64,000 bases of DNA from Phycisphaerae bacterium (GCA_029260165.1 JAJDDT010000116.1:1-64000), one strand, 5' to 3'; shown: positions 2,723-60,808, counted from the first letter of the stretch. A program made the numbers and translations. The notes: generated by a model from the sequence alone, not told the origin.

Positions 2723-3259
2723 CAGGGTCTGATTCGAGCTTCCGGCTCATTTCGACCGATTCCCACGACCGATAACACGCCGTCGCCCGCCGAGGATTCA
2801 TAAAAAAACGGAGGTGCTGACGTGAGGCTCACCCCGACTCTCGAGACGAGTCGTTAACTCGCTCAGCCTCACGCCAGCCACCCCCGTACTCAGGAGGGGA
2901 AAGAAGAATCCGAACAAACAGGGTAGTGCCGCTCACTTCTCGACTGATTGAGCCAGGCACCGTTCAATATTCCGCGGAGGCGCAGAGGACCCCGACCGAG
3001 AGTACGAGGCTAGACACACCCCCGACCCAAGCCTCCACGTCCCGCGGCTGTTCCGGTGCGGTTTTTCCAGCCCCAACGACGGGATAATACCCGTCGATTC
3101 GAGGCTGCGTGGCGTTTCCGCTCACACCCCAACTACGGTTCCTCCGCACAACTTCTGTCTCGCGATTATGATTTTTTCGGGAATTTTTGACCGGGTCGTC
3201 CAGGATTGTGACTCACGACTTGGTGATTCGTGACAGGACCGGCTAGAATCACCCGTACA

Positions 3260-6590: not shown

Positions 6591-8507
6591 ATGCGTGCGA
6601 AAACACTGTTAGCCTCGATGTGCCTCGCTCTTGCGTGGACCCATACCGATGCCGTCGCGGGACCCTGCCTCTGCAACGGAAACGCGGACAACGTCGGGAC
6701 CGTGGACCCCAACGATATCGACCTCATCTTTACCTGCCTCGATGGCGATTGCACGGGTTGTGCGAACGACTGCGACGTGAACTGTGATGGTGTTGTCGAC
6801 CTCGAAGACGTCTCCGTGGCACAATGTCAACTCGGTACGAACGACCCAACCTGTTGCGCCGCCATCACCACCGGTGCCTGCTGCATCGACGGCATTACCT
6901 GCGCGCAGGCGACCCAGGCTGTCTGCCTCGCATCGGCGGACGCCCGCTACCTCGGCGACGGAACCATTTGCGCCGATGGTGGGTGTGATTGCAACGGCAA
7001 CGGCGTCAACGATCGGCTGGATATCGCCAACAACTTCGAGGACGACTGCAACCGCAACGGCATCCCCGACCGCTGTGAAATCAACGTGGTCAGTCCCGCG
7101 CCGGGCGGTCCGTTTTTCTGCAACATCCCGGGCAACTGCGACCCGGACTGCAACAACAACGGTCAACCCGATGGATGCGACATCGAACGGTGCGGTGCGG
7201 GCATACCCGCCAACCCCGATTGTCAGGACTGCAACCTCAACCGAATTCCCGACATCTGCGATATCTCGATGGGTGTGTCCAACGACTTCAATGGAGACTT
7301 CACCCCCGATGAGTGCCGCTTCTGGGACGGTGGGGGAGGCAATGACCTTTGGGGGAATCCGCAAAACTGGAATCCCGACACCCTGCCGCAGCCGAATGAT
7401 CCGGTCACCATCGCGGGACCAACAAGCATCGTTCAGCTCGATATCCCTGTACAAATCAGATCGCTAAGTCTCATCGACCGGGCTTCGCTCATCGTATCAT
7501 CACCCCTGCCGAATGATCTGCAGATTCTCGACGGACTCGACGTCCGCGGTAATCTCAGGCTCGGACGGGATCGCCAGGTTATCGTCATGAATGGTGATGC
7601 TGTCATCGGGTCATCCGGTTCGCTCAAACGCGACGGCGTCGATCCAACGACTGCAGCCTTGAGGGTTCTCAACGGCAATCTCAAGGTGCTCGAGGGAATC
7701 GCCACACAACCTCGTGGAGAGCTTGTTCTTGAAGATCGGATGGAGCTGAGCGTGTCCGGCGACGTCGTCGTCGATGGCAGAAACGCCGTCTCCTGCGATC
7801 TGATTCCCCTCGTCGGTCCCGACTGCACCCCACCGTTGCTCGAACTCACCAAAAACTCCAAGGCCGAGATATTTGGAAAAATGGAATTGAAGGGCTCCGT
7901 CGAGATCAAGGGTGGAAAACTCGTTGCATCAGCAGCCTCCGCGCCTTCAGGATCATCCGGACCATCCGCCGCAGGCCCGCCCGACCACCAGATCGTCCTT
8001 GGCGGTGATTTCCAGAACAAAGCCACCGACCCGCAATGCTTCGATTTCATCGACGGTGGCATCCGACTCGACAGCACGATCCCCCCGTTCGCCAACTTCG
8101 GTGAAGGCCTCCCGCAGGACTTTGAAGTCGCCGGCGCGGACATAGGCCCGGTCTTCGCGGGCCTCGATAATAATTTCGCCTTCGGGCAGATTACCATCAC
8201 CACGCCCACGCGGGTCAACTTCGTCGACCGCTTCGACAACGATGGAAACCCCTCGCGACGCGACGCACAGTATGTTCAGGTTCTGCGTCTGGATCCCGGT
8301 ACCCGGACAAATACCGTTGGTGTTAATGTCTACTACGTCGATCTCATCGACGGCGGAAGCGTCATCACCGGAAACGGGGCTCTCATTCCCATCGTTGGTC
8401 CCGCCGTTCCCGCTGCCTCCGGGTTCGCCATGTTCGTTCTTGCGTCGTGCATGATTCTTGCCGCCGCCCGCATCATGCGAAAACAGCGTTTTGAACCGCA
8501 GACATGA
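6591..8507 (+). CDS. secreted Cys/Asp-rich repeat protein (dockerin/EF-hand-like DxDxDG repeats) with C-terminal membrane-anchor sorting-like tail
   Basis: AGGAGA lies upstream of ATG 6591. The signal peptide is MRAKTLLASMCLALAWTHTDAVAG. Repeats such as DVNCDGVVDLEDV are present. The C-terminus is PAVPAASGFAMFVLASCMILAAARIMRKQR. Confidence 0.6.
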   Translation: MRAKTLLASMCLALAWTHTDAVAGPCLCNGNADNVGTVDPNDIDLIFTCLDGDCTGCANDCDVNCDGVVDLEDVSVAQCQLGTNDPTCCAAITTGACCIDGITCAQATQAVCLASADARYLGDGTICADGGCDCNGNGVNDRLDIANNFEDDCNRNGIPDRCEINVVSPAPGGPFFCNIPGNCDPDCNNNGQPDGCDIERCGAGIPANPDCQDCNLNRIPDICDISMGVSNDFNGDFTPDECRFWDGGGGNDLWGNPQNWNPDTLPQPNDPVTIAGPTSIVQLDIPVQIRSLSLIDRASLIVSSPLPNDLQILDGLDVRGNLRLGRDRQVIVMNGDAVIGSSGSLKRDGVDPTTAALRVLNGNLKVLEGIATQPRGELVLEDRMELSVSGDVVVDGRNAVSCDLIPLVGPDCTPPLLELTKNSKAEIFGKMELKGSVEIKGGKLVASAASAPSGSSGPSAAGPPDHQIVLGGDFQNKATDPQCFDFIDGGIRLDSTIPPFANFGEGLPQDFEVAGADIGPVFAGLDNNFAFGQITITTPTRVNFVDRFDNDGNPSRRDAQYVQVLRLDPGTRTNTVGVNVYYVDLIDGGSVITGNGALIPIVGPAVPAASGFAMFVLASCMILAAARIMRKQRFEPQT

Positions 8508-33726: not shown

Positions 33727-34587
33727 GTGTCCGATACGATTCGCCAAACCATGAATTCCGCACTTGCAACAAATTCAGCCCTGAACACCGTCCACCTCGG
33801 TGACAATCTCCCATTCATGCAGTCGCTCCCGGACGCGTGTTGTGATCTTATCTACGTCGATCCACCCTTCTGCACCGGACAACGCCAAACCACCGCCCGC
33901 CAAACCAACGGATATTCCGACAACTGGTCCGGTTCCATCGAGGGATATCTGAAATTCCTCGAACCGCGACTACGAGAAATGCACCGCCTCCTGTCCGAAA
34001 CGGGATCACTGCTCGTGCATCTGGACTGGCGAACCGTTCATTACGCCAAGGTGATGCTCGACACCCTCTTTTCGCGCGACAATTTCCTGAACGAAATCAT
34101 CTGGCACTACCGAACCGGCGGACGATGCAGCCACTGGTTCGCCCGCAAGCACGACTCGATTCTTTTCTACGCCAAAAACAAAGGCAAACACACGTTCAAC
34201 GTCCTCCGCGGCGGAAAATTCCGCACCGATGGCCTGAACATCGACGAAGACGGCAGACCCTACAAATCCACCAAAAAGGGACGCCTCTATTTCCACCCGG
34301 ACGGACCAGCCATCACCGACGTCTGGGACATCCCGTTCCTCTCCACCGTCTCAAACGAGCGCACAGGTTACCCAACCCAAAAACCGGAGGCGCTTCTCGA
34401 TCGGATCATTCAGGCAGCCTCCAACCCGGGTGATGTCGTCGCGGATTTCTTCTGCGGTAGCGGTACGACACTCACTGTCGCAGCCCGAACGGATCGACGG
34501 TTTATAGGATGCGATATCGAGTCCGCCGCCGTGGAAATCGCGAAAAACAGGGCGACCAGCCAGGCGAATCAACGCCCGACAACATAG
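33727..34587 (+). CDS. DNA methyltransferase, beta-class (motif IV DPPF before motif I FCGSGTT), likely N6-adenine
   Basis: It has IYVDPPF and, near the C-terminus, DFFCGSGTT. No cognate nuclease lies adjacent. Its GC content (~55%) is lower than that of its neighbours. Confidence 0.8.
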   Translation: MSDTIRQTMNSALATNSALNTVHLGDNLPFMQSLPDACCDLIYVDPPFCTGQRQTTARQTNGYSDNWSGSIEGYLKFLEPRLREMHRLLSETGSLLVHLDWRTVHYAKVMLDTLFSRDNFLNEIIWHYRTGGRCSHWFARKHDSILFYAKNKGKHTFNVLRGGKFRTDGLNIDEDGRPYKSTKKGRLYFHPDGPAITDVWDIPFLSTVSNERTGYPTQKPEALLDRIIQAASNPGDVVADFFCGSGTTLTVAARTDRRFIGCDIESAAVEIAKNRATSQANQRPTT

Positions 34588-46408: not shown

Positions 46409-48043
46409 ATGCCTTGGAAATCGCATAACCGGCGACTAAACTCGGGCCTGTGGATCGGCGAGCCGCCGAAATTGGAACCTGCGGATGAGCGCATCCGTGG
46501 TGTTTTGCAGGAGGGTTTTATGCGCACAGAGACGGTGGTGGTTGGTGTTCTGGGAGGTGTTCTGGGATGGTCTTCTTTTGCCCAGGGTCAGTGGGTGAGT
46601 TTTTCTGACGAGACGGACGGTCGTTTGACGTTGTCATCCCTGATCGACGCTCCGGGGAGCGACCCGTTTGATGACGACGAGGAAAAGGATATTGCGGCAG
46701 CGGATTTCAACCGTGATGGTTGGCTTGACGCGGTGGTTGTTCGCAAGCGTGTTTTTTCAAATCCCGGAGCGCGTCAGGACATTCTCCTGATGAATGAGAA
46801 CGGGGTGCTGGTCGATCGGACGGCGAAGTTTGCCCCTGGATTTCGTCAGACACTGACCGATGCCAGGGCGGTCATTACCGAAGACATGGATGGTGACGGT
46901 TGGCGGGATGTTGTCATCGCCAACACGTTTGATCAGCAGCCATTGTACTATCGCAACCTCGGCAATGATGAGAGCGGGGAGTGGCTTGGGTTGGTCAACG
47001 AGTCGGCTGCCCGGTTTCCGACCATTACGGTTTTGAACCTGACGGGCCCGCGGTTTTGCGCGGTGGCGGCGGGTGACGTCAATGGTGATGGGTCGAACGA
47101 TCTGTTCTTCTCGAACTACAACAACAACCCCAACAGTCTTGCGACAACCGATGTGCTGCTGATCAACGACGGGTCCGGGAACTTTACCGACGAATCAGAC
47201 TCTCGGCTGGGGAATCTGGCGCGTGTGGCGTTTGGTACGGACAGTGCCGTCGTTGACATGGACGGTGATGGGGACAATGACATCGTCAAGATATCGACGG
47301 AGTTTACGATCTCGCCGTTTCCGATCGGAACGTACATCCTGTGGAATGACGGCGCGGGCAATTTTGCAACGTTCGATCCAATCCCCGGCTCGACGATGGA
47401 CTACATGATTGCGGTCGACGATTTCAACGGGGACGACACGATGGACGTCTACATCACCGGAGATTTTCAGGACAGCGTTCACCTGTCCACGCACCACGGA
47501 CCCAATGACGTCTCCTGGCAGTCATTCGCACCAAGCCCGTCGCTGCGAACGACCAATTTCGGCGGCAACACCAAGGCGGCGGACATCGACAATGATGGTG
47601 ATCCTGATATCGGGTTGGCACCGGTGGATGTGGACGTAGCCAACTGCAACTCGGGACCGAATCTGGGAGAATTCGCCTTGCTTCGCAATGATGGAACGGG
47701 GCGCTTTTCGGACCCGTTTGGTGCGGACCAGAACATTCAACTCAGGCCTCACGACTTCGTTTTTGCGGATGTCAATAACGACAACTGCCTGGATGTATTC
47801 ATGGGTCTTTGTACTGGTTGGCGTGTTTTTGTGCAGCAGAACTGCCCGGTGTACTCAGCCGCGGATTTCAATCTCGACGGTACAGCCAACACGTTTGACG
47901 CGGCGTCCTGGTTCGATTGTTTCACGGGTCCGGGCAATGGCCCGCCAATGGATGGTTGCCACCGCGCCGACTTCGATCGTGACAACGACATCGATTTCGC
48001 CGACTTCGGTTCAATGCAGCCGTTGCTGACCGACGCACCCTGA
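46409..48043 (+). CDS. secreted FG-GAP/integrin-alpha-like beta-propeller repeat protein with C-terminal dockerin-like repeat
   Basis: It has at least seven DxDGDGxxD repeats (DMDGDGWRD, DVNGDGSND, DIDNDGDPD...). The C-terminus is DFDRDNDIDFADF. The start may be at 46527. Confidence 0.75.
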   Translation: MPWKSHNRRLNSGLWIGEPPKLEPADERIRGVLQEGFMRTETVVVGVLGGVLGWSSFAQGQWVSFSDETDGRLTLSSLIDAPGSDPFDDDEEKDIAAADFNRDGWLDAVVVRKRVFSNPGARQDILLMNENGVLVDRTAKFAPGFRQTLTDARAVITEDMDGDGWRDVVIANTFDQQPLYYRNLGNDESGEWLGLVNESAARFPTITVLNLTGPRFCAVAAGDVNGDGSNDLFFSNYNNNPNSLATTDVLLINDGSGNFTDESDSRLGNLARVAFGTDSAVVDMDGDGDNDIVKISTEFTISPFPIGTYILWNDGAGNFATFDPIPGSTMDYMIAVDDFNGDDTMDVYITGDFQDSVHLSTHHGPNDVSWQSFAPSPSLRTTNFGGNTKAADIDNDGDPDIGLAPVDVDVANCNSGPNLGEFALLRNDGTGRFSDPFGADQNIQLRPHDFVFADVNNDNCLDVFMGLCTGWRVFVQQNCPVYSAADFNLDGTANTFDAASWFDCFTGPGNGPPMDGCHRADFDRDNDIDFADFGSMQPLLTDAP

Positions 48044-48049
48044 CCGATC
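47998..48049. repeat. left copy of 52-bp direct repeat (3' end of FG-GAP gene)
   Basis: It is 49/52 identical to 49520..49571. Confidence 0.8.
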
Positions 48050-48076
48050 AACCATTTAATTGTCCTGAACCAGTGA

Positions 48077-48123
48077 GGGTTTGGGCGCGCAATGCCAAAA
48101 CCGGCTACCGCGCGCCCAAACCC
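48077..48123. terminator. perfect 14-bp stem hairpin (GGGTTTGGGCGCGC-N19-GCGCGCCCAAACCC)
   Basis: The hairpin is read directly from the sequence. It lies 34 bp after the FG-GAP stop, with no T-tract. Confidence 0.4.
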
Positions 48124-48128
48124 CTCAG

Positions 48129-48200
48129 TAGGGCAGGTGCTCGCACCTGCCGTCACCATAGACGAAGAACCAAACACAATTACCGCATCCCGTGGGGCAG
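48129..48200. repeat. ~70-bp palindrome-containing repeat unit, copy 1 (TAGGGCAGGTGCTCGCACCTGCC + tail)
   Basis: Related copies are at 49086..49157 and 49163..49224. The hairpin core recurs inverted at 48286..48308. Confidence 0.8.
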
Positions 48201-48285
48201 TGCGCGCGCCCGCCGCATAAGGCTGAATCAGGGGAACACACGGGGCGAGACGGTAGTTGCCGCACGCACCGAAGGTGATAGTCTC

Positions 48286-48308
48286 GGCAGGTGCAAGCAC
48301 CTGCCCTA
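48286..48308. repeat. inverted copy of hairpin core GGCAGGTGCAAGCACCTGCCCTA
   Basis: The sequence match is direct. Confidence 0.7.
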
Positions 48309-48313
48309 CCCGG

Positions 48314-48910
48314 CTAAGGATCGTATTCGACGTATGAGCCCATGCGGACGAGGTCACGCTCGCAGGTAGCATCCCAGCCTTCCAACAGGCGATCGTACTC
48401 AGACCAGAATGCGTCGAATTCTCCGTCGATGGTCTCCACCGAGGTATCCTTTTCGATTCCTTGGAATAAAGCCTTTGCCTGCGCCGCAAAGCTCACAATC
48501 TGTTCAGCATAGACCCCCCATGGAATCTGAATCCTAGCGTCATGGAATTTGACCGCTTCCGTAAGATCGTTTGATTCGTATCGGACAACGTTGTCGATGC
48601 AAACAAGCCCGTCTTGATGCCGGACGTCCCAATCAATTCCAATGTCGCAGTGCATCATGAGGATCAATCCGCAGCCGTGAGGGATTAACCGCTCCGCAAC
48701 CCGGTGCTGACTTGTATGCCGAAACTTCAAAGTCCTCAGAAGTCCGAGAGCTGCCTCACTGATGCCATAGCTCCCGGACTCGCCGGGTGATACGCCAACC
48801 GATATTTGCTGTCCACCGATTCGCAGATCAATTTCACCGTGAGAACAAAGATCGTGCCTGGCGTCATTGTCGATCCAGCCCTGCCGCAGAATTCGAATCG
48901 AGAAGTCCAT
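48314..48910 (-). CDS. hypothetical protein, lower-GC cargo of the inserted segment
   Basis: This is a 198-aa ORF with no recognisable motif. Palindromic repeat copies sit at 48129..48308 on its 3' side, and further copies at 49086..49224 lie ~175 bp beyond its 5' end. Confidence 0.5.
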   Translation of the reverse strand: MDFSIRILRQGWIDNDARHDLCSHGEIDLRIGGQQISVGVSPGESGSYGISEAALGLLRTLKFRHTSQHRVAERLIPHGCGLILMMHCDIGIDWDVRHQDGLVCIDNVVRYESNDLTEAVKFHDARIQIPWGVYAEQIVSFAAQAKALFQGIEKDTSVETIDGEFDAFWSEYDRLLEGWDATCERDLVRMGSYVEYDP

Positions 48911-49085
48911 TCATCACCTCACCAAATTGATACGATACTTGAGGCAAGCCCGACCCTCCACCTGGCGATGTCCGAATGTGGCCCCATCGTGATGACACTG
49001 CTCTTGATCACGTCTGGAGCTTTTGTGTACCGGGGGCATCGCTCACTAACCTAGTAATTGGAGCCGCGTGCCATGAACAGCCTGG

Positions 49086-49224
49086 TAGGGCAGGTGCTTG
49101 CACCTGCCGTCACCATAGACGAAGAATCAAACAAAATCACCGCATTCCGTGGGGCAGTTCAGTAGGGCAGGTGCTCGCACCTGCCGTCACTATGGACGCG
49201 AAATCAAACACAACTACCGCAGCC
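49086..49224. repeat. two tandem copies of the ~70-bp palindromic repeat unit
   Basis: The units at 49086..49157 and 49163..49224 each contain GGCAGGTGC(T)YGCACCTGCC. Confidence 0.8.
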
Positions 49225-49376
49225 AACTATATCCCGAAACAGCACCCGATCAAAATTCGCGCGTGGCGAACTTGTGCGTGCCACCCAACAACTTCCTTCC
49301 GGCGGAATCTCCACAACAGCCGATCTGGCCCAACCTCCCGACTCATCCCAACCGACCACCACGGCAAGGCTGGTTC

Positions 49377-49508
49377 ATGAACAAGGTCCGGACAATCACA
49401 AGCGTCGTCACCCTCGCGGTCGCCCTGTCTGCCGTTGGCTGTCAGTCCGCGCGTGTTTTCTATAAACCAAGCCTGCGCAGTGACTTAGCACCGCAACAAA
49501 ACGAATAG
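49377..49508 (+). CDS. small putative lipoprotein (43 aa)
   Basis: The sequence MNKVRTITSVVTLAVALSAVGC has a signal peptide and a lipobox-like Cys. Its size and architecture are entericidin-like. The call is weak. Confidence 0.3.
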   Translation: MNKVRTITSVVTLAVALSAVGCQSARVFYKPSLRSDLAPQQNE

Positions 49509-49519
49509 ATCATCCTCGC

Positions 49520-49571
49520 CGCCGACTTCGGTTCAATGCAGCCGTTGCTGACTGATGCTCCCTGACCGATC
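49520..49571. repeat. right copy of 52-bp direct repeat
   Basis: It duplicates the FG-GAP C-terminal codons (…DFGSMQPLLTDAP*) as a pseudo-end. Confidence 0.8.
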
Positions 49572-49602
49572 GATGGTTGTCCATTTCAGGATTGGTAACG
49601 AA

Positions 49603-49643
49603 ATTGGGCGTGCGGTGCCGCGAACTGCGGTCGCACGCCCAAT
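49603..49643. terminator. 12-bp stem hairpin (ATTGGGCGTGCG-N17-CGCACGCCCAAT) between convergent genes
   Basis: The hairpin is read directly from the sequence. It lies between the lipoprotein ORF (+) and the diheme cytochrome (-). Confidence 0.4.
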
Positions 49644-49712
49644 CCCTACCGATTACAAGTCTCTGATTGCGAAATGTCACCCGCGGTATCGCGAGGTCGC
49701 GGGGCTGCCGGG

Positions 49713-50597
49713 CTACCTGACTGTCGCACGGCGGGAATAACGAAGCGACAATACTGCGACAGCGAACATCGTCAGCACCATGGCGAGCATTCCCCATTCG
49801 GAAGTCGTGGGGACGGCGGACACCGCAGGTGCGGTCGGGAAATTTTGTTGGATGTACAGTCCGAGGTCTGCGGCTCCCTGGTCGGAACCACCGTTCTGAG
49901 TCCAACTCGGCATCGCGGGTTGGCTACCCGGTTGCCCGACGCGAATCTTGTGCATGAACTCCCACGGGTTGCTTACCGCAACCGTTCCGACCCACTCGGG
50001 ATTTTCGGGGGTACCGAAATTGAGATCGGTACCGTCGTCTCCGTGGCAGAAGAAACAAAAACCGCTTCCGGTGTAGTTGGCTTCACCCTGCACGGGGTCG
50101 CCGACAAATTGAGTGCCGTTGAGGAATGCGGCTGGGTCGACCAATTGTGTCTGGAGAAATGCAACAATGTCGTCGATGTCTGCGTCGGACAGGCCAATCG
50201 TTCCGAAACCGTGACCGTTGACATTTGTGCCACCCGTACCGTCGCCGTCCGGGTTTTTGATGATGTCGAACATCTGCGCGGGCGTCATGGCTGAGGTCAA
50301 CACGCCTGGAATGCCCGTGAAGTGCGACGAGCCGACAGCGTACGCTCCGGCGGCGCCTTTGTAGTCCCAACCGTGACATTCCTTGCAACGGAAGGTCGTG
50401 TTACCGGATTGCTGTCCAACCGCAGGATATAGCGGATGCTCGCCAACCGGGGCGGGGGAACCATTCCCGGTCCACCATTTGTCGTACAGCCGTCCCCCCT
50501 GGAACGCGTCCTGTGCGACGGCTTGTGATGACAGGCAAAAGACAACGACGGCCAACGCACCCAACGAGGTGCGCGCACTGAGTGGGCGGTATTCCAT
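49713..50597 (-). CDS. secreted diheme cytochrome c with C-terminal membrane-anchor sorting-like tail
   Basis: It has a signal peptide and the heme motifs CKECH and CFFCH. The C-terminus is PTTSEWGMLAMVLTMFAVAVLSLRYSRR. Confidence 0.8.
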   Translation of the reverse strand: MEYRPLSARTSLGALAVVVFCLSSQAVAQDAFQGGRLYDKWWTGNGSPAPVGEHPLYPAVGQQSGNTTFRCKECHGWDYKGAAGAYAVGSSHFTGIPGVLTSAMTPAQMFDIIKNPDGDGTGGTNVNGHGFGTIGLSDADIDDIVAFLQTQLVDPAAFLNGTQFVGDPVQGEANYTGSGFCFFCHGDDGTDLNFGTPENPEWVGTVAVSNPWEFMHKIRVGQPGSQPAMPSWTQNGGSDQGAADLGLYIQQNFPTAPAVSAVPTTSEWGMLAMVLTMFAVAVLSLRYSRRATVR

Positions 50598-50789: not shown

Positions 50790-53700
50790 CTATTCACCGC
50801 CGAACTTCCACCAGCGTTTTTTGCCGGCGATTGACGGATCGGGGTTGTTTTTCTCATTCTCGATGATCTTGAGCAGGTCGGCGTCGCTCATCGTGGGGCC
50901 CTTGATGCGGCGGAGCATGCGCAGTTTTTCGCGGGTCTCGTCGTCGAGTCCCTCGGGCAGGGCATCCTGGGAAACGTCTGCGGGGGGTTGGTTCGACTCC
51001 GGTGTGTGATCGTTTTCCTTTGCGGTGGGCTGATCCTGTTCCTTATTGGCGGCGATACTTTTCCCGGACACAGCGGACGATTTCGATTCGGTTTTTGCTT
51101 TTGGTTCACGTTTCCTCGATTTCTCTTCGACAACCCGGCTTGAAAGATCAACGGGACCAACGTTGCCTTGTTCGTTGACAAGCTCGACGGTTTCACGAGC
51201 GGCGGCGGATGCCTGCTCGGCGGCTTCGGTGATTTCGTCCTGTTGTCTGGTAAGATTCGCCTGCAATTCATCGAGTGCAGAGCGGTGTTTTTCGAGATCA
51301 TCACGCCACTGTTCGAGTGCTTTGCGCTCGGTGCCAAGCTCCTCGGCCCATTCCTCCGCTTCGGTTTCACGTTTCGAGATATGTTGTTCGGCGGTTGATG
51401 TTTCCGCGTTTTGCGATTCGACGGACTCGATGCGTTTCTGAAGATCGTTGCGCTGTTGTTCGAGTTTTTGTCTGTCGGCATGGAAACCTTCCCGCTCGAC
51501 GGCCAGCGATTTTTCTCGCTCTTCCACGTCTTTGAGAAATTCCTCCAACTCGGCGCGATCGCTCCGGGACGAATTGGCTTGCTGAGCAACTGACGATTGC
51601 TCCCGAGCCATCTGGTCTTGTTTTTCGACGAGTTCCTTTTTCTGCGACTCGAGTTCCCGGCGTTGCCCGTCAAGTTCGGACGATTGTGATTGCAGTTGCT
51701 CCTGTTGGGATTCGAGCTGTTCACGCAGTTCGACGATCGTCTGCTGTTCATGCTCGAGCGATTGGCGTTTCTCGGTGACGGCGTTGTGTTCGGACTGTTG
51801 CGATCCTCGTTGTTGTTCCAGTTGCTTTTTGATTTTTTGAAGCTCGGCGTTTTCGCTCGCGAGTTTGTCGCGATCGGAATCGGTTTTCTGACGCTCGACA
51901 TCGAGGCTGGCCTGCTCGCTGGCGGTTTGCTCGAGCTTTGTTGACAGTTCGTCACGTTGTAACTGCAGCTTTTCACGCTCGGCGGCGAGTCGTTGTCGTT
52001 CGGTGGCGATCTGGGTGGCTTCGTCCTGATGATCGCCCAGTTCGGAGGTGAGGCGATTGCGTTCGTCATCGAGTTCGGCGCGTTCGTCGGCGAGTCGTTG
52101 CTGATCGGATTTGATCTGCCGACGCTTTTCGGCCAACTGCTCTCGTTCCGATTTTAGCTGGGCGGTTTCGGCGTTGTGTTTTTCGGTTAGTGCGTGGACG
52201 CGTTCGGTCTCGGCGTTGGATTCGGCCTGCTGGGCGGCGATTTTTTCGGCAGACGATTCGAGCGATTGTTTTTGTTGTTCGAGTTCGAGTCGTGTGGCTT
52301 TGAAAGATTCGCGATCGCTGCGAAGACGGGTTTGCAACGCCTCTGCCTGCGCGTGGGCCTTGTCGATTTCCGCCCGCTCGGCGCTCAGGGCGGAGCGATC
52401 CTTGGCGATCTGTTCCCGTTCGGATTGCAGCAGTTGGCGCTCGGCGGCGGACCGCTCGCCTTCACCGCGACATTGTTCGACCTCCGCCTGGAATTTTTGA
52501 CGAACGTCTTTGAATTGTTTTCGTTCGGAATCGAGCCTCTTGCGATCAGCCAACTGCTTTTCGCGTTGTTCGCTCGCGCCTCGCTGGTCCTGCGCGAGAC
52601 GGGCACGCTGTTCCTCGATCGATTCACGATCCGACGCGGCGCGGACGGACTCGGAGCGGAGTTGTTCCTTGTCTTTTTCCAGCGCGGACCTGGTCTTCTC
52701 GAGGTTGCCCGTTGCGGCTTCGATGGCTTGTGATCGCTGTGCGACGTCGGCGCTGTGTTTTCGCAATTCGCCCTTTTGCGATTCAAGACGCTCCCTGTCC
52801 GCTTCAATCTCGGAGGCTTGCTTGCGGATGGCGTCGCGATGTTGGATCAACTCGGCCTTTTGCTGATCCTGCAACTTGGCGCATTGCTGCAATTTTGCGT
52901 TTCGATTCTCGATTTTCGACTGGTTCTGCGCGATCTCCTGCGCGCGTTGGTCCAGTTCCGAACGCTTCTGGTCTAGTTGCTTCACCTCCGTTTGCAGGCT
53001 TGAGTGCTGTTGTTTGAGATTGGCTTCCTGATCCCTGACGTGGGCACCCTGCTTTTCGATTTCCGCCCGTTGTTGCTGCAACCGGTTGTGGTCTTCGGTG
53101 ATTTTCGCGGTCTGTTTTTCAAGATTGGCGGACTTTTTCGCGGATTCAGCCGCCTGTTGCTCCAACTGCTTCGATCGGCCATCAAGACCCTGCTCGCGTT
53201 GGGTTTGTTTGACGCCGGCCTGCTCGACGGCGTGCCTGGTTTGTTCCAACTCTTTCTTCTGCGCGCCGAGCTTTTCATGTTGGTCAGCCAGCGATTTTCG
53301 TTCCGCCTCGATGGTCTTGCTGCGTTCGCCGAGCTTTGATCGTTCGTCCTTGATGGCGGACCGCTCGGATTCAAATTTCCGGAACTGTTCCTGCAGTTGC
53401 TTCGCACGCTCTTCGAGTTTCGATTGCCCGTCCCTGATCGCCGCCTGTTCGGACTCCTGCTGTTTTGACTGCTCCTGGAGGTTTTTCGCCTGCTCTTCGA
53501 GTTTCGATCGTCCGTCCCTGATGGCGGACCGCTCGGATTCCAGCCGCTTTGACAGATCCTGAAGCTGCACAGACTGGTCGTCGAGTTTGTTTTGCGATGC
53601 TGCAATCTGCGTGTCGCGTTCCCTGGCAGCCAGCACCGCAGCCTGAACCTGCTCCTGTTTTCCGGCCAGCTCAGTTTGCTGGGATTCCAGTCTGGCCTGC

Positions 53701-54902
53701 AGCGAGTTCAGCGATTTCTCGCGGTCGCCCATTTTGGTTTGACGCGCTTCCAATGCTTGAGCGTGTTTGTTGATTTCACCGCCACGCGACTCGAGTTTTT
53801 GCGCGGTCGCGGCTTGCTCCTTTGCGATCGCGTCCAATTGATTGCGTTGATCCGCAAGCTGTTGGGCTTGTGCTTCGTGTTGCTGTTTACTCTTGGCGAG
53901 GTCAGCCGATTGCTGATCCAACTGCTGCTTCTGCTGATCCAGTTGCTGTTTGTGCTGCTCAAGATGCTGCTGTTGCTGCTCAAGTTTCTTCTGTTCGATC
54001 GCCCTCTTTTCGAGCGCCTGCTCTTTCTCCTTCAAACCGGCTGCCTGCGATTCGATCCTGTTGGCACGCTCGTCAAGCTTCTGCTGCTCCTGTTGAACAG
54101 CGATCTGACGCTGCTCCGATTGCTCCTGATCTTTTTGGAGTTTTTGTCCCTGATCTTCGATCTGCCGGCGACGTTGCTCTATCGCCTGGACATCGGCAGC
54201 CAGCTTCTGCTGCTGGTCCGATAGCGATTGTTGGGCGGTGGCGAGCGTTTCCTGCTGTTCCCGGACCTGGGTTTCCCGGCTGGCGATCTCTTGTTCAGCG
54301 GCTTCGATTTTTTTCCGGCGTGCATCGAGCTTTGCGGTTCGATCCGACCATTCCCGGTCGCGGGCGGCGAAGTCCGTTTTGGTGCGTTCAAATTCAGCCT
54401 TCTCTTTTTTCAGAGACTCATTTCGGCCTGCCAGCGCGTTAGCGTCCTGTTCAATCCCTGATTTTGTGGTTGCGAGTTTTTTTTGTTCGATCCCAATCTG
54501 CTCGAATTGTTGGGCAATTTCGATTGCCTGTGCTTCGAGTTTCTTTTCGCGGTCCGCGGCTGATTGCTCACGGTCTGATAATGTGGCAGCGAGGTCATTA
54601 TTTTTCTTTTTTTCTGCCTCGATTTGTTGCGCACGTTCTCGGACGGCGGAATTTTGAGCCTCAACCTCCTCCGCGTGCTGCTTCGTTCTGCCGGCAAATT
54701 TCTCGACGCGGGCTCGCCATTCGTCAATTTGCTGCCACGATTGCGCGACACTTTTCTGAATCGTTTCAATGCGTTCGGTCACGGAAACGAGAACGTCCGA
54801 AATCCGGTCGTGGCTGGACACAGCCTGCCCGCGCGAGCCGGTTTTCGCATTATCGGTTTCGGGTGAATTCATATCGGGATTCGCCAGGTTCGCATCAGTC
54901 AT
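50790..54902 (-). CDS. giant (1370 aa) coiled-coil protein
   Basis: It shows heptad-like Q/E/K/R/A/L-rich sequence along almost the whole length and no NTPase motifs. The C-terminal tail is ...SIAGKKRWWKFGGE. Confidence 0.8.
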   Translation of the reverse strand: MTDANLANPDMNSPETDNAKTGSRGQAVSSHDRISDVLVSVTERIETIQKSVAQSWQQIDEWRARVEKFAGRTKQHAEEVEAQNSAVRERAQQIEAEKKKNNDLAATLSDREQSAADREKKLEAQAIEIAQQFEQIGIEQKKLATTKSGIEQDANALAGRNESLKKEKAEFERTKTDFAARDREWSDRTAKLDARRKKIEAAEQEIASRETQVREQQETLATAQQSLSDQQQKLAADVQAIEQRRRQIEDQGQKLQKDQEQSEQRQIAVQQEQQKLDERANRIESQAAGLKEKEQALEKRAIEQKKLEQQQQHLEQHKQQLDQQKQQLDQQSADLAKSKQQHEAQAQQLADQRNQLDAIAKEQAATAQKLESRGGEINKHAQALEARQTKMGDREKSLNSLQARLESQQTELAGKQEQVQAAVLAARERDTQIAASQNKLDDQSVQLQDLSKRLESERSAIRDGRSKLEEQAKNLQEQSKQQESEQAAIRDGQSKLEERAKQLQEQFRKFESERSAIKDERSKLGERSKTIEAERKSLADQHEKLGAQKKELEQTRHAVEQAGVKQTQREQGLDGRSKQLEQQAAESAKKSANLEKQTAKITEDHNRLQQQRAEIEKQGAHVRDQEANLKQQHSSLQTEVKQLDQKRSELDQRAQEIAQNQSKIENRNAKLQQCAKLQDQQKAELIQHRDAIRKQASEIEADRERLESQKGELRKHSADVAQRSQAIEAATGNLEKTRSALEKDKEQLRSESVRAASDRESIEEQRARLAQDQRGASEQREKQLADRKRLDSERKQFKDVRQKFQAEVEQCRGEGERSAAERQLLQSEREQIAKDRSALSAERAEIDKAHAQAEALQTRLRSDRESFKATRLELEQQKQSLESSAEKIAAQQAESNAETERVHALTEKHNAETAQLKSEREQLAEKRRQIKSDQQRLADERAELDDERNRLTSELGDHQDEATQIATERQRLAAEREKLQLQRDELSTKLEQTASEQASLDVERQKTDSDRDKLASENAELQKIKKQLEQQRGSQQSEHNAVTEKRQSLEHEQQTIVELREQLESQQEQLQSQSSELDGQRRELESQKKELVEKQDQMAREQSSVAQQANSSRSDRAELEEFLKDVEEREKSLAVEREGFHADRQKLEQQRNDLQKRIESVESQNAETSTAEQHISKRETEAEEWAEELGTERKALEQWRDDLEKHRSALDELQANLTRQQDEITEAAEQASAAARETVELVNEQGNVGPVDLSSRVVEEKSRKREPKAKTESKSSAVSGKSIAANKEQDQPTAKENDHTPESNQPPADVSQDALPEGLDDETREKLRMLRRIKGPTMSDADLLKIIENEKNNPDPSIAGKKRWWKFGGE

Positions 54903-57131: not shown

Positions 57132-58001
57132 ATGTCGATCGCATTGAGTGCAACGCAGTGTCTGATCTGCCAGCAGGAAAACACGGAAGACGCGTACTGC
57201 TGTGCGCTTTGTTCCGCACCGATGTCATTATCGCGGGAGGCGTTGATTCAGAACCGCCACCCCAACATGATCACCGTCATCGGGGACAGCAACGTCGGCA
57301 AGACCGTTTATCTTGGTTACCTGCTCGACATGTTGACGCGACGCGCAGGCGAATATGAATCGGTACCCAAGGGACCGTTTTCGATCAACCTTCAGCAAAA
57401 CGTGATGAGCCACCTGGCCATGCGGTTGTTCCCCCCGAAGACACCCAACGAGGTCGACCAATGGCATTGGGCATACTGTCAGACCGCACACAAGCGACGT
57501 CCCGATCAGTGGTTCGATCTGGTCATGCCGGACATGGCTGGCGAGTCGATCGGAACCGAACTCGACGCTCCGGGAAGCTATCCCGCCATTCAGGGATTGC
57601 TCACGCAGAGTCGCGGTATCATGTTGCTCGTTGACGCATCGGCTGCGGCAATGGGCAACGTGCAGGCGGACTTCTTTGCGTTCAAATTGATGAGCTACAT
57701 CGATCAACTGGCTGCCCTCGGCACGGAAACAAAAGTCGCAACACCGGTGGCTGTTGTCCTTTGCAAGTCTGATTATTGCCCACAGTCGTTTGACGATCCG
57801 ATCACGTTTTCCCAGACCAACCTCAACCGCCTCTGGAATCTCTGCGATTCGCGATTCACCAACGTCGCCTACTTCGCCGCCAGCGTCATCGGTGCGATCG
57901 GCTACGGAACCGACGAGGACGACAACGTCGTGTCGGTTCCACTGCACTCCGCGCCACGCGGTATTCTGGAACCATTTGAATGGTTGATCACAGCCCTGTG
58001 A
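57132..58001 (+). CDS. small Ras-like P-loop GTPase with N-terminal zinc ribbon
   Basis: Its ATG directly abuts the upstream TAA. It has CLICQQ...CCALC (CxxC...CxxC), the G1 motif GDSNVGKT, the G3 motif DMAGE, the G4 motif LCKSD and a G5-like FAAS. Confidence 0.8.
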   Translation: MSIALSATQCLICQQENTEDAYCCALCSAPMSLSREALIQNRHPNMITVIGDSNVGKTVYLGYLLDMLTRRAGEYESVPKGPFSINLQQNVMSHLAMRLFPPKTPNEVDQWHWAYCQTAHKRRPDQWFDLVMPDMAGESIGTELDAPGSYPAIQGLLTQSRGIMLLVDASAAAMGNVQADFFAFKLMSYIDQLAALGTETKVATPVAVVLCKSDYCPQSFDDPITFSQTNLNRLWNLCDSRFTNVAYFAASVIGAIGYGTDEDDNVVSVPLHSAPRGILEPFEWLITAL

Positions 58002-59197
58002 TGCAGGTCGACCATGCAGTCTTCACGTCGAGCGAAACCCGCATGGCACAGGGATATCGCATCGTCGCGTCATCCGCCAATCTGACCGCCGACGAAAAAA
58101 AACACATCACCACCGCCAGCCCGTCGCACTCAGCCATGTGCCCGATCAACGACGACAACATCGGCCTGTCGTTTTATCCACTACGCAGCGGGCGATATTG
58201 CATCGCACGCACCACCCACGCTGGTCTCGAACAAACCGCACGCGGTGGGCAACGCGTGCTCACGCAATCATTTGTTCTGTCCGCCGATCAACTGCTCGCG
58301 TTTGACAACAATCCGTTCGCCATCCTTGGCGCACTCAATCGCGGCGGCGCGTTTGAATTCGACGAACTACCGAAAGGCCAACTGGAACCCATCGAACTCG
58401 ACGCACCAACCGGGACGTCGTCGTTCAACACAAGCATTGTCGACGACCCCGCAACGTTCATCCTGCTGGCCAACACTTTTGCAACCGACGCGATGATCAC
58501 CATAGGCGTTGGAGACATCGTAAGCCTGCTCGAAACCGCGTTGATGTTTTTGCCCAGGCCGCTGCGATTGAATTACTCGTTCACAATGGGTCTGAAATTC
58601 GCCCTTTCGCGTCGATACCGCCTGCACGCAATCGGTGAGGCGGACCTCGCAACCAAACGCGTTATCCGGGGTCAACCCATTCAACTCGTTGAAGACCTGC
58701 GAAAAAACACCCCCGAGTCCCCATCCCATCCCTGGACCGATCTTTGGACCGACTGCGTTGGTGTCGGAAAGCTTGATATGCTCGCAAGCCTCGCAAGCGA
58801 CGAATTTGACAGCACCGACGACCACACATTGAGCGAGGTAGCCACCTATCAAAAGGCGATTAACCACATCGCCGACGAACCACTCGAGGCACTCCTGGCT
58901 GGGTGGCAGCCTGTCTCCGACGACGAACTCCCGGAAACCAACATCGAACGAACGATGTTGAAGCGATACATCACCGCCAAAAAATCTCGAACGATCACTG
59001 CAATGAGCACCGCAGACGCGTCCACCCTGACGCCATGCTGGAGTTGGATCACGCAGTTGGCGCTATCCGACGAGAATATCCGCAAGGCGTGCGAAGCCGC
59101 AGCGAATCGCATCGACGAGTTAACCTGCCCATGGCTTTCGGAACGCGAGCCATCGCAACCCGACGCAATTCCGCACGAATCCGCACCACATTCCTGA
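58001..59197 (+). CDS. hypothetical 399-aa protein translationally coupled to the GTPase
   Basis: Its ATG overlaps the GTPase stop (TGATG). No motif was recognised. Confidence 0.6.
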   Translation: MQVDHAVFTSSETRMAQGYRIVASSANLTADEKKHITTASPSHSAMCPINDDNIGLSFYPLRSGRYCIARTTHAGLEQTARGGQRVLTQSFVLSADQLLAFDNNPFAILGALNRGGAFEFDELPKGQLEPIELDAPTGTSSFNTSIVDDPATFILLANTFATDAMITIGVGDIVSLLETALMFLPRPLRLNYSFTMGLKFALSRRYRLHAIGEADLATKRVIRGQPIQLVEDLRKNTPESPSHPWTDLWTDCVGVGKLDMLASLASDEFDSTDDHTLSEVATYQKAINHIADEPLEALLAGWQPVSDDELPETNIERTMLKRYITAKKSRTITAMSTADASTLTPCWSWITQLALSDENIRKACEAAANRIDELTCPWLSEREPSQPDAIPHESAPHS

Positions 59198-59223: not shown

Positions 59224-59248
59224 GTAGCGTCACCCCTTGTGGGTGACG
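59224..59248. repeat. REP-like hairpin GTAGCGTCACCCcttgtGGGTGACG (copy 1), probable terminator
   Basis: It has an 8-bp stem and a 5-nt loop. An identical copy lies at 60730..60754. Confidence 0.6.
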
Positions 59249-59417
59249 GGAACACGAAACGACGTCATCTTGCAATCGCGCCGCCAACAACGAACGACGC
59301 TGCAAGAGTGCAAAGCACGATGATCGTGCCCACCGATTCTGCCACGGCCCCGTTGTCGCTCAATCCGTGCACGGGTATCATCCCGACATCGGGCAACCTG
59401 TCTCAAGTGTGTTGACT

Positions 59418-60632
59418 ATGTCAGATTCGATCAACTCCGCGTCACTCAATCTCCCTTCCGGAACTGAACTCGCATTTGGCACACTCCTCAACGTCTGCTC
59501 CACCCTGAATCAGCCCGGTACTGCGCAGGAATTGCTGGACAACCTTCTCCTGCAAGCCCGACGACTCGTCAACGCCCAGGCGGGCACCGTGTTCCTCGTC
59601 AACCACAGCCAACTGCGGTTCGTCTGTTGCCAGAACGACGCAAGGCCCGACCTTTGCGTCGCGCCAAAACCATACGAACTCGATCGTGTTTCGCTTTCGG
59701 GTACCAGAATATCAGTAGATGAGACGTCGCTGGCGGGTTACGTCGCAAGGTACAAGGAACCACTTCGCATCGACGATGCCTACAACATGCCGTCCAGTGT
59801 TTGTCACAAATTCGACACGTCGCACGACAAGACCACAGGCTACAGAACGAAATCGCTGCTTGTGATCCCCCTGATCGACCGCCTTGGGGACACCGTTGGC
59901 GTACTGCAACTTATCAACAAGCAGATACCCACCGGCGAAACAGACACCGCGTTCACCGAGCGCGACCAGCAGATCGCGCTGGCTGTTGCATCCCTGGCCG
60001 CCGTCTGCATTCGCAATGCAAAGCTGCGCGACACTCTTCGCGACTCGCACCTCGACACCATCATGCGCCTGTCAACCGCCGCAGAATTTCGCGACGATGA
60101 CACAGGGCAACATATTCGTCGCGTCAGCTTTTATTGTGAAACGATCGCAAGAAACGCGGGATGCGGACCGGAAACGTCGCAGATTATCCTGTTTGCAAGC
60201 CCCATGCACGACATCGGAAAACTCGGTATCCCCGACGCCATCCTGACAAAACCCGGTCCGTTATCGCGCGAAGAGCGGTTGGCCATGCAGGAGCATACGG
60301 TGCTCGGCGCGAAAATATTGAATGGTTCAGACAACGAGATTATCGCAATGGCAGAGTCGATCGCGCTGGCGCATCACGAAAAATGGGACGGGTCGGGCTA
60401 TCCCGCAGGCCTGCGCGGCGAGGATATTCCCCTCCCAGGCCGCATCTGCGCGGTGGCGGACGTGTTCGACGCACTCACATCCAAACGCGTTTACAAGAAC
60501 GCCTTCCCGTTCAGCGAAGCCATCGATTTGATCCGTCAGGGAATCGGGACACACTTCGACCCCTGGCTTGTTGACGTTTTTCTCTCCGCCAGGGGCGAAA
60601 TCGAAATCATCCACGAAGCGCTGACGGAATAA
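59418..60632 (+). CDS. GAF-domain HD-GYP phosphodiesterase (c-di-GMP)
   Basis: It has HD...HDIGK and HHEKWDGSGYP (GYP), preceded by a GAF domain. Confidence 0.85.
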   Translation: MSDSINSASLNLPSGTELAFGTLLNVCSTLNQPGTAQELLDNLLLQARRLVNAQAGTVFLVNHSQLRFVCCQNDARPDLCVAPKPYELDRVSLSGTRISVDETSLAGYVARYKEPLRIDDAYNMPSSVCHKFDTSHDKTTGYRTKSLLVIPLIDRLGDTVGVLQLINKQIPTGETDTAFTERDQQIALAVASLAAVCIRNAKLRDTLRDSHLDTIMRLSTAAEFRDDDTGQHIRRVSFYCETIARNAGCGPETSQIILFASPMHDIGKLGIPDAILTKPGPLSREERLAMQEHTVLGAKILNGSDNEIIAMAESIALAHHEKWDGSGYPAGLRGEDIPLPGRICAVADVFDALTSKRVYKNAFPFSEAIDLIRQGIGTHFDPWLVDVFLSARGEIEIIHEALTE

Positions 60633-60729: not shown

Positions 60730-60754
60730 GTAGCGTCACCCCTTGTGGGTGACG
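60730..60754. repeat. REP-like hairpin copy 2
   Basis: It is identical over 25 bp to 59224..59248. Confidence 0.6.
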
Positions 60755-60808
60755 AGAAAACCAGAAAGTGTCGGCGAGCGAGGATGCTGTGCTTGAATAG
60801 AAACGACC

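What the first reader, a model, noticed from the sequence alone, without database searches (positions are those of the whole stretch)
47998..49571. 1.47-kb insertion bracketed by 52-bp direct repeats that duplicate the 3' end of the FG-GAP gene
47998..48049 and 49520..49571 are 49/52 identical. The right copy re-encodes the FG-GAP C-terminus (...DFGSMQPLLTDAP*) as a pseudo-end. That is the signature of site-specific integration into a gene's 3' end with target reconstitution. The interior contains a lower-GC orphan gene (48314..48910, ~52% GC), a 43-aa lipoprotein-like ORF and many palindromic repeats. It has no integrase or transposase, so it may be a decayed or mobilisable mini-island, or a cargo site used by an element encoded elsewhere.
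Basis: seen in the sequence. Interest (0 to 1): 0.7.

Follow-up and report, generated by a model that had tools for sequence, protein, structure and literature searches.

The report
Repeat-flanked mini-insertion at a gene's end
A 1.47-kb piece of DNA sits just after an FG-GAP gene and is flanked by two diverged copies of that gene's last 15 codons plus its terminator hairpin; it looks like the scar of an old insertion of foreign DNA that carries one accessory gene and four small palindromic repeats and has no recombinase of its own, which makes it a tidy but fairly ordinary case.

Summary
Positions 47998-48049 and 49520-49571 match at 49/52, and none is expected by chance.

The duplicated unit is longer than reported, about 127 nt:
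- the last 15 codons and the stop codon;
- a 31/32-nt spacer that barely aligns;
- a 39-nt hairpin found only at these two places in the window.

The two copies look like gene ends that diverged under selection. The first 33 nt are identical. All three differences are synonymous. The hairpin stems differ by two compensatory pairs.

The right copy sits where a terminator shared with the convergent cytochrome c gene would be, so it is probably the original gene end.

The interior holds four GTAG-tagged REP palindromes, a family not seen elsewhere in the window. It also holds a 198-aa gene that is not an orphan: it has 97 homologues, a confident model with no clear fold match, and a different neighbourhood in every relative examined.

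No integrase, transposase or RAYT is encoded anywhere in the 64 kb.

Best reading (about 0.5): the scar of a single-crossover insertion of foreign DNA that carried its own copy of the gene's tail and terminator, and that is now non-autonomous. An integrase-driven mechanism is not shown.

The empty-site test could not be done, because no relative is more than 57% identical. This is a new member of a known kind, of modest interest.

The parts
46520..48043 (+). FG-GAP/VCBS repeat gene (507 aa as called in the public record) ending in a dockerin-like C-terminal module. This is the target gene.
   Evidence: Pfam FG-GAP_3 at 5.7e-25. A 100% match to P0098, 507 aa. The C-terminal 60-aa module is widespread, with 539 representative hits.
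47998..48049 (+). Left copy of the 52-nt direct repeat: the last 15 codons, the stop codon and 6 more nt of the live gene.
48077..48123 (+). Hairpin 1: a 14-bp perfect stem with a 19-nt loop, 33 nt after the stop codon. Terminator-like, with no U tract.
   Evidence: Inverted repeat I13. RNA fold -38.8 kcal/mol, z -6.5. The motif occurs at only two places in the window.
48128..48201 (+). REP copy R1: GTAG tag, 9-bp stem GGCAGGTGC and TC loop, then a 50-nt tail.
48278..48315 (-). REP copy R2 (head part only), inverted relative to R1. R1 and R2 fold together as a REPIN-like long hairpin. R2 abuts the stop codon of the 198-aa gene.
   Evidence: Inverted repeats I1-I3. DNA fold of 48120-48320 has z -4.8.
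48314..48910 (-). 198-aa conserved gene of unknown function, with conserved DLCSHG, GISEAALGLLRTL and HGCG..LMMGC motifs. This is the cargo.
49085..49158 (+). REP copy R3, 93% identical to R1 over 74 nt. With R2 it brackets the 198-aa gene as a 38-nt inverted repeat (49079-49116).
49162..49235 (+). REP copy R4, in tandem with R3 at a 77-nt period.
49377..49508 (+). 43-aa ORF with a signal-peptide and lipobox-like N-terminus. It is in frame with the pseudo-end and separated from it by a TAG codon. Whether it is a real gene was not established.
   Evidence: Sequence. No Pfam hit. No similar sequence in the window or in the fetched loci.
49520..49571 (+). Right copy of the 52-nt repeat: a non-coding pseudo-end of the FG-GAP gene. 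It carries three synonymous T-ending codons (ACT GAT GCT where the left copy has ACC GAC GCA).
49603..49643 (+). Hairpin 2, homologous to hairpin 1 and differing from it by two compensatory pairs. It lies 38 nt after the pseudo-stop and 69 nt after the stop of the convergent cytochrome c gene, so it is probably the original shared terminator.
   Evidence: Pairings were read.
49713..50597 (-). Convergent dihaem cytochrome c gene. This is the right-hand chromosomal flank, not part of the insert.
   Evidence: Pfam Cytochrome_CBB3 and Cytochrom_C.

Best explanation
This is the scar of a horizontal insertion anchored in the last ~50 nt of the FG-GAP gene.

Before the event, the FG-GAP gene and the cytochrome c gene converged on one shared hairpin terminator. 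That is today's right copy plus hairpin 2. A piece of foreign DNA of about 1.4-1.5 kb, most simply a circular molecule, recombined by a single (Campbell-type) crossover within the 33-nt stretch that is identical in both copies. The incoming DNA carried its own version of the same gene tail and terminator, derived from another lineage.

As a result, the live gene now ends in the incoming tail and terminator (left copy plus hairpin 1). The displaced resident tail and terminator lie 1.47 kb downstream as a pseudo-end. If the crossover was instead to the right of the three differences, the three variant codons in the right copy are the foreign ones. The topology is the same either way.

The cargo is a 198-aa accessory gene of unknown function bracketed by GTAG-tagged REP palindromes, plus a doubtful 43-aa ORF.

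The element has no recombinase. Today it is at most passively excisable by recombination between the direct repeats. Which enzyme made the crossover is not determined: a tyrosine or serine integrase acting in trans, RecA, or illegitimate end-joining next to a homologous anchor.

Shown: the anatomy and the pattern of divergence. Inferred: the direction of the event, the foreign origin, and the mechanism.
For: 1. The repeat is real and far beyond chance.
2. The homology covers about 127 nt, taking in the tail, the spacer and the hairpin. The hairpin motif is unique to these two sites, has the same 39-nt length at both, and sits at offsets of 32 and 33 nt.
3. Divergence is graded in the way expected for two functional gene ends from different lineages, not for a fresh duplication. 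The first 33 nt match 33/33. Then come three differences, all synonymous; the chance of 3/3 being synonymous is 0.013. All three fall in the last four codons, which by my own count has a chance of about 0.01. The spacer is nearly unalignable. The hairpin stems differ by two compensatory pairs, T:A to A:T and C:G to T:A (sequence, folds).
4. Homology ends abruptly on the left. There is no similarity upstream of 49520, and no other trace of FG-GAP coding sequence in the insert.
5. Hairpin 2 sits between the pseudo-stop and the stop of the convergent cytochrome c gene, a natural arrangement before an insertion.
6. The interior is distinctive. It holds 4 of the window's 6 GTAG-tagged perfect hairpins, and all copies of that REP family.
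7. The 198-aa gene behaves as an accessory gene. Its six closest homologues each sit in a different neighbourhood, one of them next to a serine recombinase and an IS21. In one other MAG the gene is again bracketed by inverted REPs with the same GTAGGGCA...TGCCGTC head and tail. Its codon fit is the second lowest of 46 ORFs.
Against: - No empty-site allele, circular junction or donor locus could be found. No relative of the FG-GAP gene is more than 57% identical, and the relatives' loci are not syntenic.
- No integrase, transposase or RAYT is encoded in the whole window.
- Composition is barely atypical: 0.556 against 0.569 GC, and codon fit z about -1.7.
- REPs also bracket an ordinary GAF-HD gene elsewhere in the window. 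REP flanks are therefore not in themselves evidence of mobility.
- In 55 other loci the homologues show no flanking inverted repeats above the null.
- The statistical arguments rest on only three substitutions and two compensatory pairs.
Confidence: 0.5

Rival explanations
1. The right copy is a relic of a second gene. It would be the last 46 nt plus the terminator of a tandem paralogue, or of another gene carrying the same C-terminal module, whose body was deleted or replaced. The 198-aa gene and the REPs would simply lie in what used to be the space between the two genes.
For: - FG-GAP genes do occur in tandem in a relative (L067).
- The C-terminal ~60-aa module is shared by hundreds of unrelated proteins, so several genes in one genome may end alike.
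- A functional paralogue tail would also explain the synonymous-only differences and the compensatory hairpin changes.
Against: - No other FG-GAP or dockerin coding remnant is present between 48044 and 49519 (blastx), and there is no similarity upstream of 49520. The deletion would therefore have to be clean and to spare exactly 15 codons.
- A run of 33 nt of perfect identity followed by a sharp change in divergence looks more like a crossover boundary than like a pair of paralogues.
- The repeat has no further copy in the window.
Confidence: 0.2
2. The last ~127 nt were duplicated in place, for example by template switching at hairpins during replication or by REP-associated rearrangement. 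The copies then diverged slowly, and gene conversion kept the first 33 nt identical.
For: - Hairpins and REPs are abundant exactly here and are known hot spots for rearrangement (established knowledge).
- Direct repeats in cis can undergo gene conversion.
- Composition is nearly native.
Against: - A non-coding pseudo-tail should pick up changes at any codon position and at the rate seen in the spacer. Instead positions 34-52 show 3/19 differences, all synonymous, while the adjacent spacer is almost unalignable.
- This does not explain where the 1.39 kb between the copies came from, nor why that DNA has its own REP family.
Confidence: 0.12
3. The mobile unit is the ~840-bp module REP-198-aa gene-REP (48278-49116), moved in trans by a REP-recognising enzyme (RAYT/TnpA-REP-like) or even by the 198-aa protein itself. 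The 52-nt repeat would then be a separate or secondary feature.
For: - The same gene in another MAG (L061/L062, 61% aa identity) is bracketed by 41-nt inverted repeats with the same GTAGGGCA head and TGCCGTC tail. The spacing there is 750 nt, against 763 nt here, and the genomic context is unrelated.
- Published work describes RAYT genes as typically flanked by GTAG REPs (PMC3733652).
Against: - The orientation of the REP heads relative to the gene is opposite in the two genomes.
- Fifty-five other homologue loci lack flanking inverted repeats.
- The Bacillus cereus homologue is a stable single-copy chromosomal gene.
- The protein has no HUH/Y1 motif and no Y1_Tnp hit.
- A different REP family brackets an ordinary GAF-HD gene in the same window.
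- REP/IS200-type transposition makes no 52-nt duplications (established knowledge).
Confidence: 0.08
4. Assembly artefact: two strain or locus variants from a metagenome were joined in one MAG contig, creating an artificial duplication.
For: - The source is a metagenome-assembled contig: the protein is recorded on one 120-kb NCBI contig and on Logan contigs.
- An independent Logan contig (L060) breaks inside the REPs at 48130 and 49114, so this region is hard to assemble.
Against: - L060 confirms 48130-49114 at 100% identity.
- The 49519|49520 junction shares only a few bases with the FG-GAP sequence upstream of 47998. No k-mer-length overlap exists that could have caused a false join.
- The longest exact repeat is 33 nt, shorter than the usual final assembly k-mers.
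Confidence: 0.05

Closest known systems
[quoted passage not shown]
   Same: Direct repeats flank the element, and one of them forms the functional 3' end of the target gene. The gene end is rebuilt. There is no integrase inside. The element is small.
   Different: No cognate integrase-bearing element, att-site family or empty site is known for this one. The homology runs past the gene end into a diverged terminator. The phylum is different (Planctomycetota MAG). Mobilisation is untested.
GTAG-tagged REP / REPIN elements (PMC3733652)
   Same: The interior repeats have an unpaired GTAG tag, a 9-bp stem and a two-base TY loop (TC or TT). They lie outside genes, occur as inverted dimers (R1/R2 fold as one long hairpin) and as tandem copies. 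The superfamily has been reported in Planctomycetes.
   Different: Only 4 copies are visible, all in this one locus. Genome-wide copy number and a cognate RAYT are unknown. Copies R1, R3 and R4 share an unusually long (~50 nt) conserved tail.
Campbell-type single-crossover integration and homology-facilitated illegitimate recombination of foreign DNA (established knowledge)
   Same: The end product is the same: insert DNA flanked by a direct duplication of the homologous segment. The copies are hybrids, and there is a sharp boundary between an identical tract and a diverged tract. The 33-nt identical tract is about the minimal length for RecA-dependent exchange.
   Different: These are general mechanisms rather than an element family. 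Nothing here shows which of them acted.
CdiI / Imm23-type immunity proteins of polymorphic toxin systems (structural neighbour of the 198-aa cargo protein)
   Different: The similarity is weak. Foldseek finds nothing at E<=0.001. No toxin gene lies next to it here or in B. cereus. Conserved Cys and His residues suggest a metal site, which is not typical of those immunity proteins.

Membership tests
Integrative element remnant (CIME-like) | Direct repeats (attL/attR) flank the element, and one of them forms the 3' end of the target gene | tested here: met
   47998-48049 against 49520-49571 at 49/52. The left copy is the live gene end.
Integrative element remnant (CIME-like) | No integration or transfer genes inside the element | tested here: met
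   No Pfam hit for any ORF in the insert. No recombinase anywhere in the window.
Integrative element remnant (CIME-like) | The att sites are related to those of a functional integrase-bearing element with the same target specificity | not testable with these tools
   The repeat and the back-translated tail were absent from viral contigs. No related element was found.
Integrative element remnant (CIME-like) | An empty site in relatives, or detectable excision (attB and attP junctions) | not testable with these tools
   The closest FG-GAP homologues are at most 57% identical and not syntenic. There is no access to reads.
GTAG-tagged REP / REPIN | An unpaired GTAG tag at one end of a short stem-loop (stem 5-13 bp, loop 2-20 nt) | tested here: met
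   GTAG followed by GGCAGGTGC-TY-GCACCTGCC, four times. Criteria taken from PMC3733652.
GTAG-tagged REP / REPIN | Located outside genes, often as inverted dimers | tested here: met
   All four copies are intergenic. R1 and R2 are inverted and fold together with z -4.8.
GTAG-tagged REP / REPIN | A multi-copy family dispersed around the genome | tested here: inconclusive
   All 4 copies in the 64 kb lie in this locus. A related form occurs twice in L061. The rest of the source genome is not available.
GTAG-tagged REP / REPIN | A cognate RAYT (Y1 HUH transposase) in the genome | not testable with these tools
   None is present in the window. The rest of the genome is unseen.
RAYT / IS200-IS605 TnpA (as the identity of the 198-aa protein) | Y1_Tnp fold with an HUH motif and a catalytic Tyr | tested here: not met
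   No Pfam or NCBIfam hit. No HUH among the conserved columns. No structural match.
Transposon with target-site duplication | A short identical duplication that abuts the element's terminal inverted repeats, plus a transposase | tested here: not met
   The duplication is 52 to ~127 nt and has diverged. No inverted repeats adjoin the repeat copies. No transposase is present.
Polymorphic-toxin immunity protein (as the identity of the 198-aa protein) | Membership of an immunity family by sequence or fold, and a position next to a toxin gene | tested here: inconclusive

The most novel reading that the evidence does not exclude
The REP-198-aa gene-REP module could be a previously unrecognised kind of REP-associated gene cassette. 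In that reading it travels between planctomycete genomes together with its own REP family, and it settles behind genes by carrying a copy of the target gene's tail and terminator, a 'tail-replacing' mini-element that needs no recombinase of its own. In the boldest version, the Cys/His-rich 198-aa protein, which has no known fold, is itself the REP-binding or REP-cleaving factor.
Probability: 0.08. Interest if true: 0.6.

Novelty: new member of a known kind. Interest (0 to 1): 0.3.

Why it matters
The locus is a clean example of reading the history of an insertion from one sequence alone. Synonymous-only differences, compensatory changes in a terminator, and a sharp boundary of identity separate 'foreign copy of the gene end' from 'fresh duplication'.

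It also documents GTAG-tagged REPs in an uncultured planctomycete. And it flags a widespread 198-aa family, with no annotation and no clear fold match, that sits in variable and sometimes REP-bracketed contexts.

None of this changes current understanding of mobile DNA. It would matter more if the REP-gene-REP module, or the copying of a target's tail, turned out to be a recurrent way of moving genes.

Tried and rejected
1. Empty-site test. A genome-collection scan with the FG-GAP protein found only relatives of at most 36% identity. The big protein search gave at most 57%. The two relatives' loci I fetched are not syntenic. Exact look-ups of the FG-GAP protein failed. The test was not possible.
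2. Remnant of a decayed FG-GAP gene in the insert. blastx finds only the 14-aa tail. Rejected as a gradual decay, kept as a clean-deletion rival.
3. Flanking inverted repeats as a general property of the 198-aa family. Only the window and L061 rise above the null, out of 57 loci scored. Rejected as a family trait.
5. The second 198-aa ORFs, in the window (3230-3826, a sigma-70 factor) and in L063 (4416-5012), are unrelated to the family.
6. Known RNA families in 47500-50000: none. No tRNA or tmRNA in the window. Nothing useful from the promoter and terminator scan.
7. Phage or plasmid origin of the cargo. No phage hit, and only 5 large non-mobilizable plasmids at 28-41% identity.
8. The REP and the back-translated tail are absent from viral contigs.
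9. A word-index search with the 70-aa C-terminus returned nothing. The exhaustive HMMER search showed the module is widespread but found no near-identical tail.
10. Integron attC and transposon target-site duplication were considered by inspection and set aside. There are no R'/R'' core sites, no terminal inverted repeats next to the direct repeats, and the duplication is too long and too diverged.
Full report
**Observation**

The reported repeat exists as described. 47998-48049 and 49520-49571 are 49/52 identical. A 29-nt core occurs exactly twice in the window, and never in 100 shuffles. The copies enclose 1470 nt (48050-49519).

The left copy is the live 3' end of an FG-GAP/VCBS gene. Pfam FG-GAP_3 scores 5.7e-25, and the public gene call is 46520-48043, 507 aa. 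The right copy re-encodes ADFGSMQPLLTDAP* but is cut off upstream by a TAG codon. That TAG is also the stop of a 43-aa ORF in the same frame.

**The duplicated unit is longer and is not a fresh copy**

The 78 nt that follow each copy align far better than shuffled sequence (0 of 1000 shuffles). Both contain a 39-nt hairpin, TTGGGCGYGC-N19-GCRCGCCCAA. It occurs nowhere else in the 64 kb and starts 32 and 33 nt after the repeat. Both hairpins fold strongly, with z -6.5 and -4.4.

Read against each other, the shared stems differ by two compensatory pairs, T:A to A:T and C:G to T:A (sequence). The spacer between repeat and hairpin is almost unalignable.

Within the 52 nt, the first 33 are identical. 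The three differences are ACC GAC GCA against ACT GAT GCT. All are synonymous third-position changes; the chance of that is 0.013. They cluster in the last four codons, which has a chance of about 0.01 by my own count. Upstream of 47998/49520 there is no similarity. blastx finds no other FG-GAP remnant in the insert.

This pattern has three parts:
- a coding tail conserved at the protein level;
- a terminator conserved in structure;
- a spacer free to drift, with a sharp boundary next to an identical tract.

That is what two functional gene ends from different lineages look like after a crossover. It is not what a recent local duplication looks like, and it is not what a neutrally decaying pseudo-copy looks like.

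**Polarity**

Hairpin 2 lies 38 nt after the pseudo-stop and 69 nt after the stop of the convergent dihaem cytochrome c gene (49713-50597). Two convergent genes sharing one hairpin is a natural arrangement before an insertion. I therefore take the right-hand hairpin as resident, and hairpin 1 with everything up to 49519 as incoming.

Whether the three variant codons are resident or incoming depends on where exactly the crossover lay. This cannot be decided.

**Interior**

*REP elements.* There are four copies of one element: R1 48128-48201 (+), R2 48278-48315 (-), R3 49085-49158 (+) and R4 49162-49235 (+). Each consists of an unpaired GTAG, a 9-bp stem GGCAGGTGC and a two-base TC or TT loop. 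These meet the published description of GTAG-tagged REPs, which have been reported in Planctomycetes (PMC3733652). R1 and R2 form a REPIN-like inverted dimer that folds with z -4.8.

A census finds six GTAG-plus-perfect-hairpin sites in the window, against 0.7 in shuffles. Four of them are in the insert. The other two belong to a different REP family and bracket an ordinary GAF-HD gene.

*The 198-aa gene.* The gene at 48314-48910 (-) is not an orphan.
- It has 97 homologues: 58-71% identical in planctomycete MAGs and about 40-50% elsewhere, including Bacillus.
- Its conserved motifs are DLCSHG, GISEAALGLLRTL and HGCG..LMMGC.
- It has no hit in Pfam, NCBIfam, PADLOC, PHROGs or by PDB sequence.
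- Its AlphaFold2 model is confident, at pLDDT 87.6.

Its function remains unknown.

*Its neighbourhoods.* The gene's neighbourhood differs in every close relative examined:
- next to purE and an IF-2B-family gene;
- next to a phosphoglucomutase;
- next to a glyoxalase-family gene (Glyoxalase_3);
- next to a DUF6183 gene;
- convergent with a serine recombinase beside an IS21.

In B. cereus it is a stable single-copy chromosomal gene. It occurs on a few large non-mobilizable plasmids and on no phage.

**An unexpected link**

In another MAG from the same study (L061/L062; protein 61% identical), the gene is again bracketed by 41-nt inverted repeats. They have the same GTAGGGCA head and TGCCGTC tail but a different stem. 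They lie 750 nt apart, against 763 nt here.

However, the heads point the opposite way relative to the gene. None of 55 other homologue loci has flanking inverted repeats above the null. I treat this as a real but unexplained association, compatible with the module having moved together with its REPs.

**No machinery**

Every ORF of 80 aa or more in the window was scanned against Pfam. The window encodes respiratory-chain and housekeeping genes and no integrase, transposase or Y1 transposase. There is no tRNA or tmRNA and no Rfam match.

Composition is nearly native. The insert is 0.556 GC against 0.569 for the window. The gene's codon fit is the second lowest of 46 ORFs but only about 1.7 sd below the mean.

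**What could not be tested**

The decisive empty-site comparison failed for lack of relatives. An independent Logan contig confirms 48130-49114 at 100% but breaks in the REPs. It says nothing about the direct-repeat junctions.

The FG-GAP C-terminal module is a widespread, shuffled C-terminal domain, with 539 representative hits. This keeps alive the idea that another gene's tail is involved.

**Verdict**

The feature is real. It is best explained, at about 0.5, as the scar of a single-crossover insertion of foreign DNA that carried its own copy of the target gene's tail and terminator, and that is now non-autonomous.

RecA-dependent exchange in the 33-nt identical tract, or homology-facilitated illegitimate recombination, fits equally well.

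The rivals are:
- a leftover tail of a deleted paralogue (0.2);
- an in-place duplication with gene conversion (0.12);
- a REP-mobilised cassette as the true mobile unit (0.08);
- an assembly artefact (0.05).

It resembles a CIME and contains bona fide GTAG REPs, so it is a new member of a known kind and of modest interest.

Noticed in passing
window 59224-59255 and 60730-60761: A second GTAG-tagged REP family (GTAGCGTCACCCCTTGTGGGTGACG). Two direct copies bracket an ordinary GAF-HD gene (59367-60632). The genome therefore carries several low-copy REP families, and REPs on both sides of a gene are not unusual here.
   Followed up: partly
L061 5869-5909 and 6660-6700 (the same in L062): In another planctomycete MAG, the 198-aa homologue is bracketed by 41-nt inverted repeats with the same GTAGGGCA...TGCCGTC head and tail as the window's REPs. 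The heads point the opposite way relative to the gene. The association between gene and REP family across two genomes is unexplained.
   Followed up: partly
L061 6884-6976, 7399-7491 and inverted partial copies at 7027-7076: Another repeat family of about 93 nt, with the hairpin CCCATGTCC..GGACATGGG, fills the long intergenic region downstream of the module.
   Followed up: no
L063 240-4161: A 69%-identical homologue of the 198-aa gene is convergent with, and slightly overlaps, a serine recombinase (Resolvase, 799-1413). The recombinase lies next to a complete IS21 (istA/istB with 27-nt terminal inverted repeats at 1469-1495 and 4135-4161).
   Followed up: no
window 47831-48040 (FG-GAP C-terminus): The last ~60 aa form a widespread C-terminal module (C.TGP..GP...GC..DFD.D.DVD..DF..FQ). 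It has 539 representative hits and is found at the very end of many unrelated proteins and in many very short ORFs. The C-terminal modules of FG-GAP homologues differ in type, which suggests frequent swapping of 3' ends.
   Followed up: partly
window 57132-59197: A Double-GTPase (DO-GTPase1/2) gene followed by an overlapping gene with GAP1-N2/N1 domains. In Pfam's naming this pair belongs to the predicted GTPase-centred conflict systems.
   Followed up: no
window 50790-54902 (-): A 1370-aa ORF that is almost entirely coiled coil (rich in Q, E, K and R), with internal 84-nt and 168-nt DNA repeats. It has only a weak DUF7491 hit.
   Followed up: no
window 33727-34587: A stand-alone N6/N4 DNA methyltransferase gene. 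Among the neighbouring ORFs scanned, none had a restriction-enzyme hit.
   Followed up: no
window 49713-50597 (-): The dihaem cytochrome c has a weak IPTL-CTERM-like C-terminal sorting motif (E 0.021, below the cut-off).
   Followed up: no
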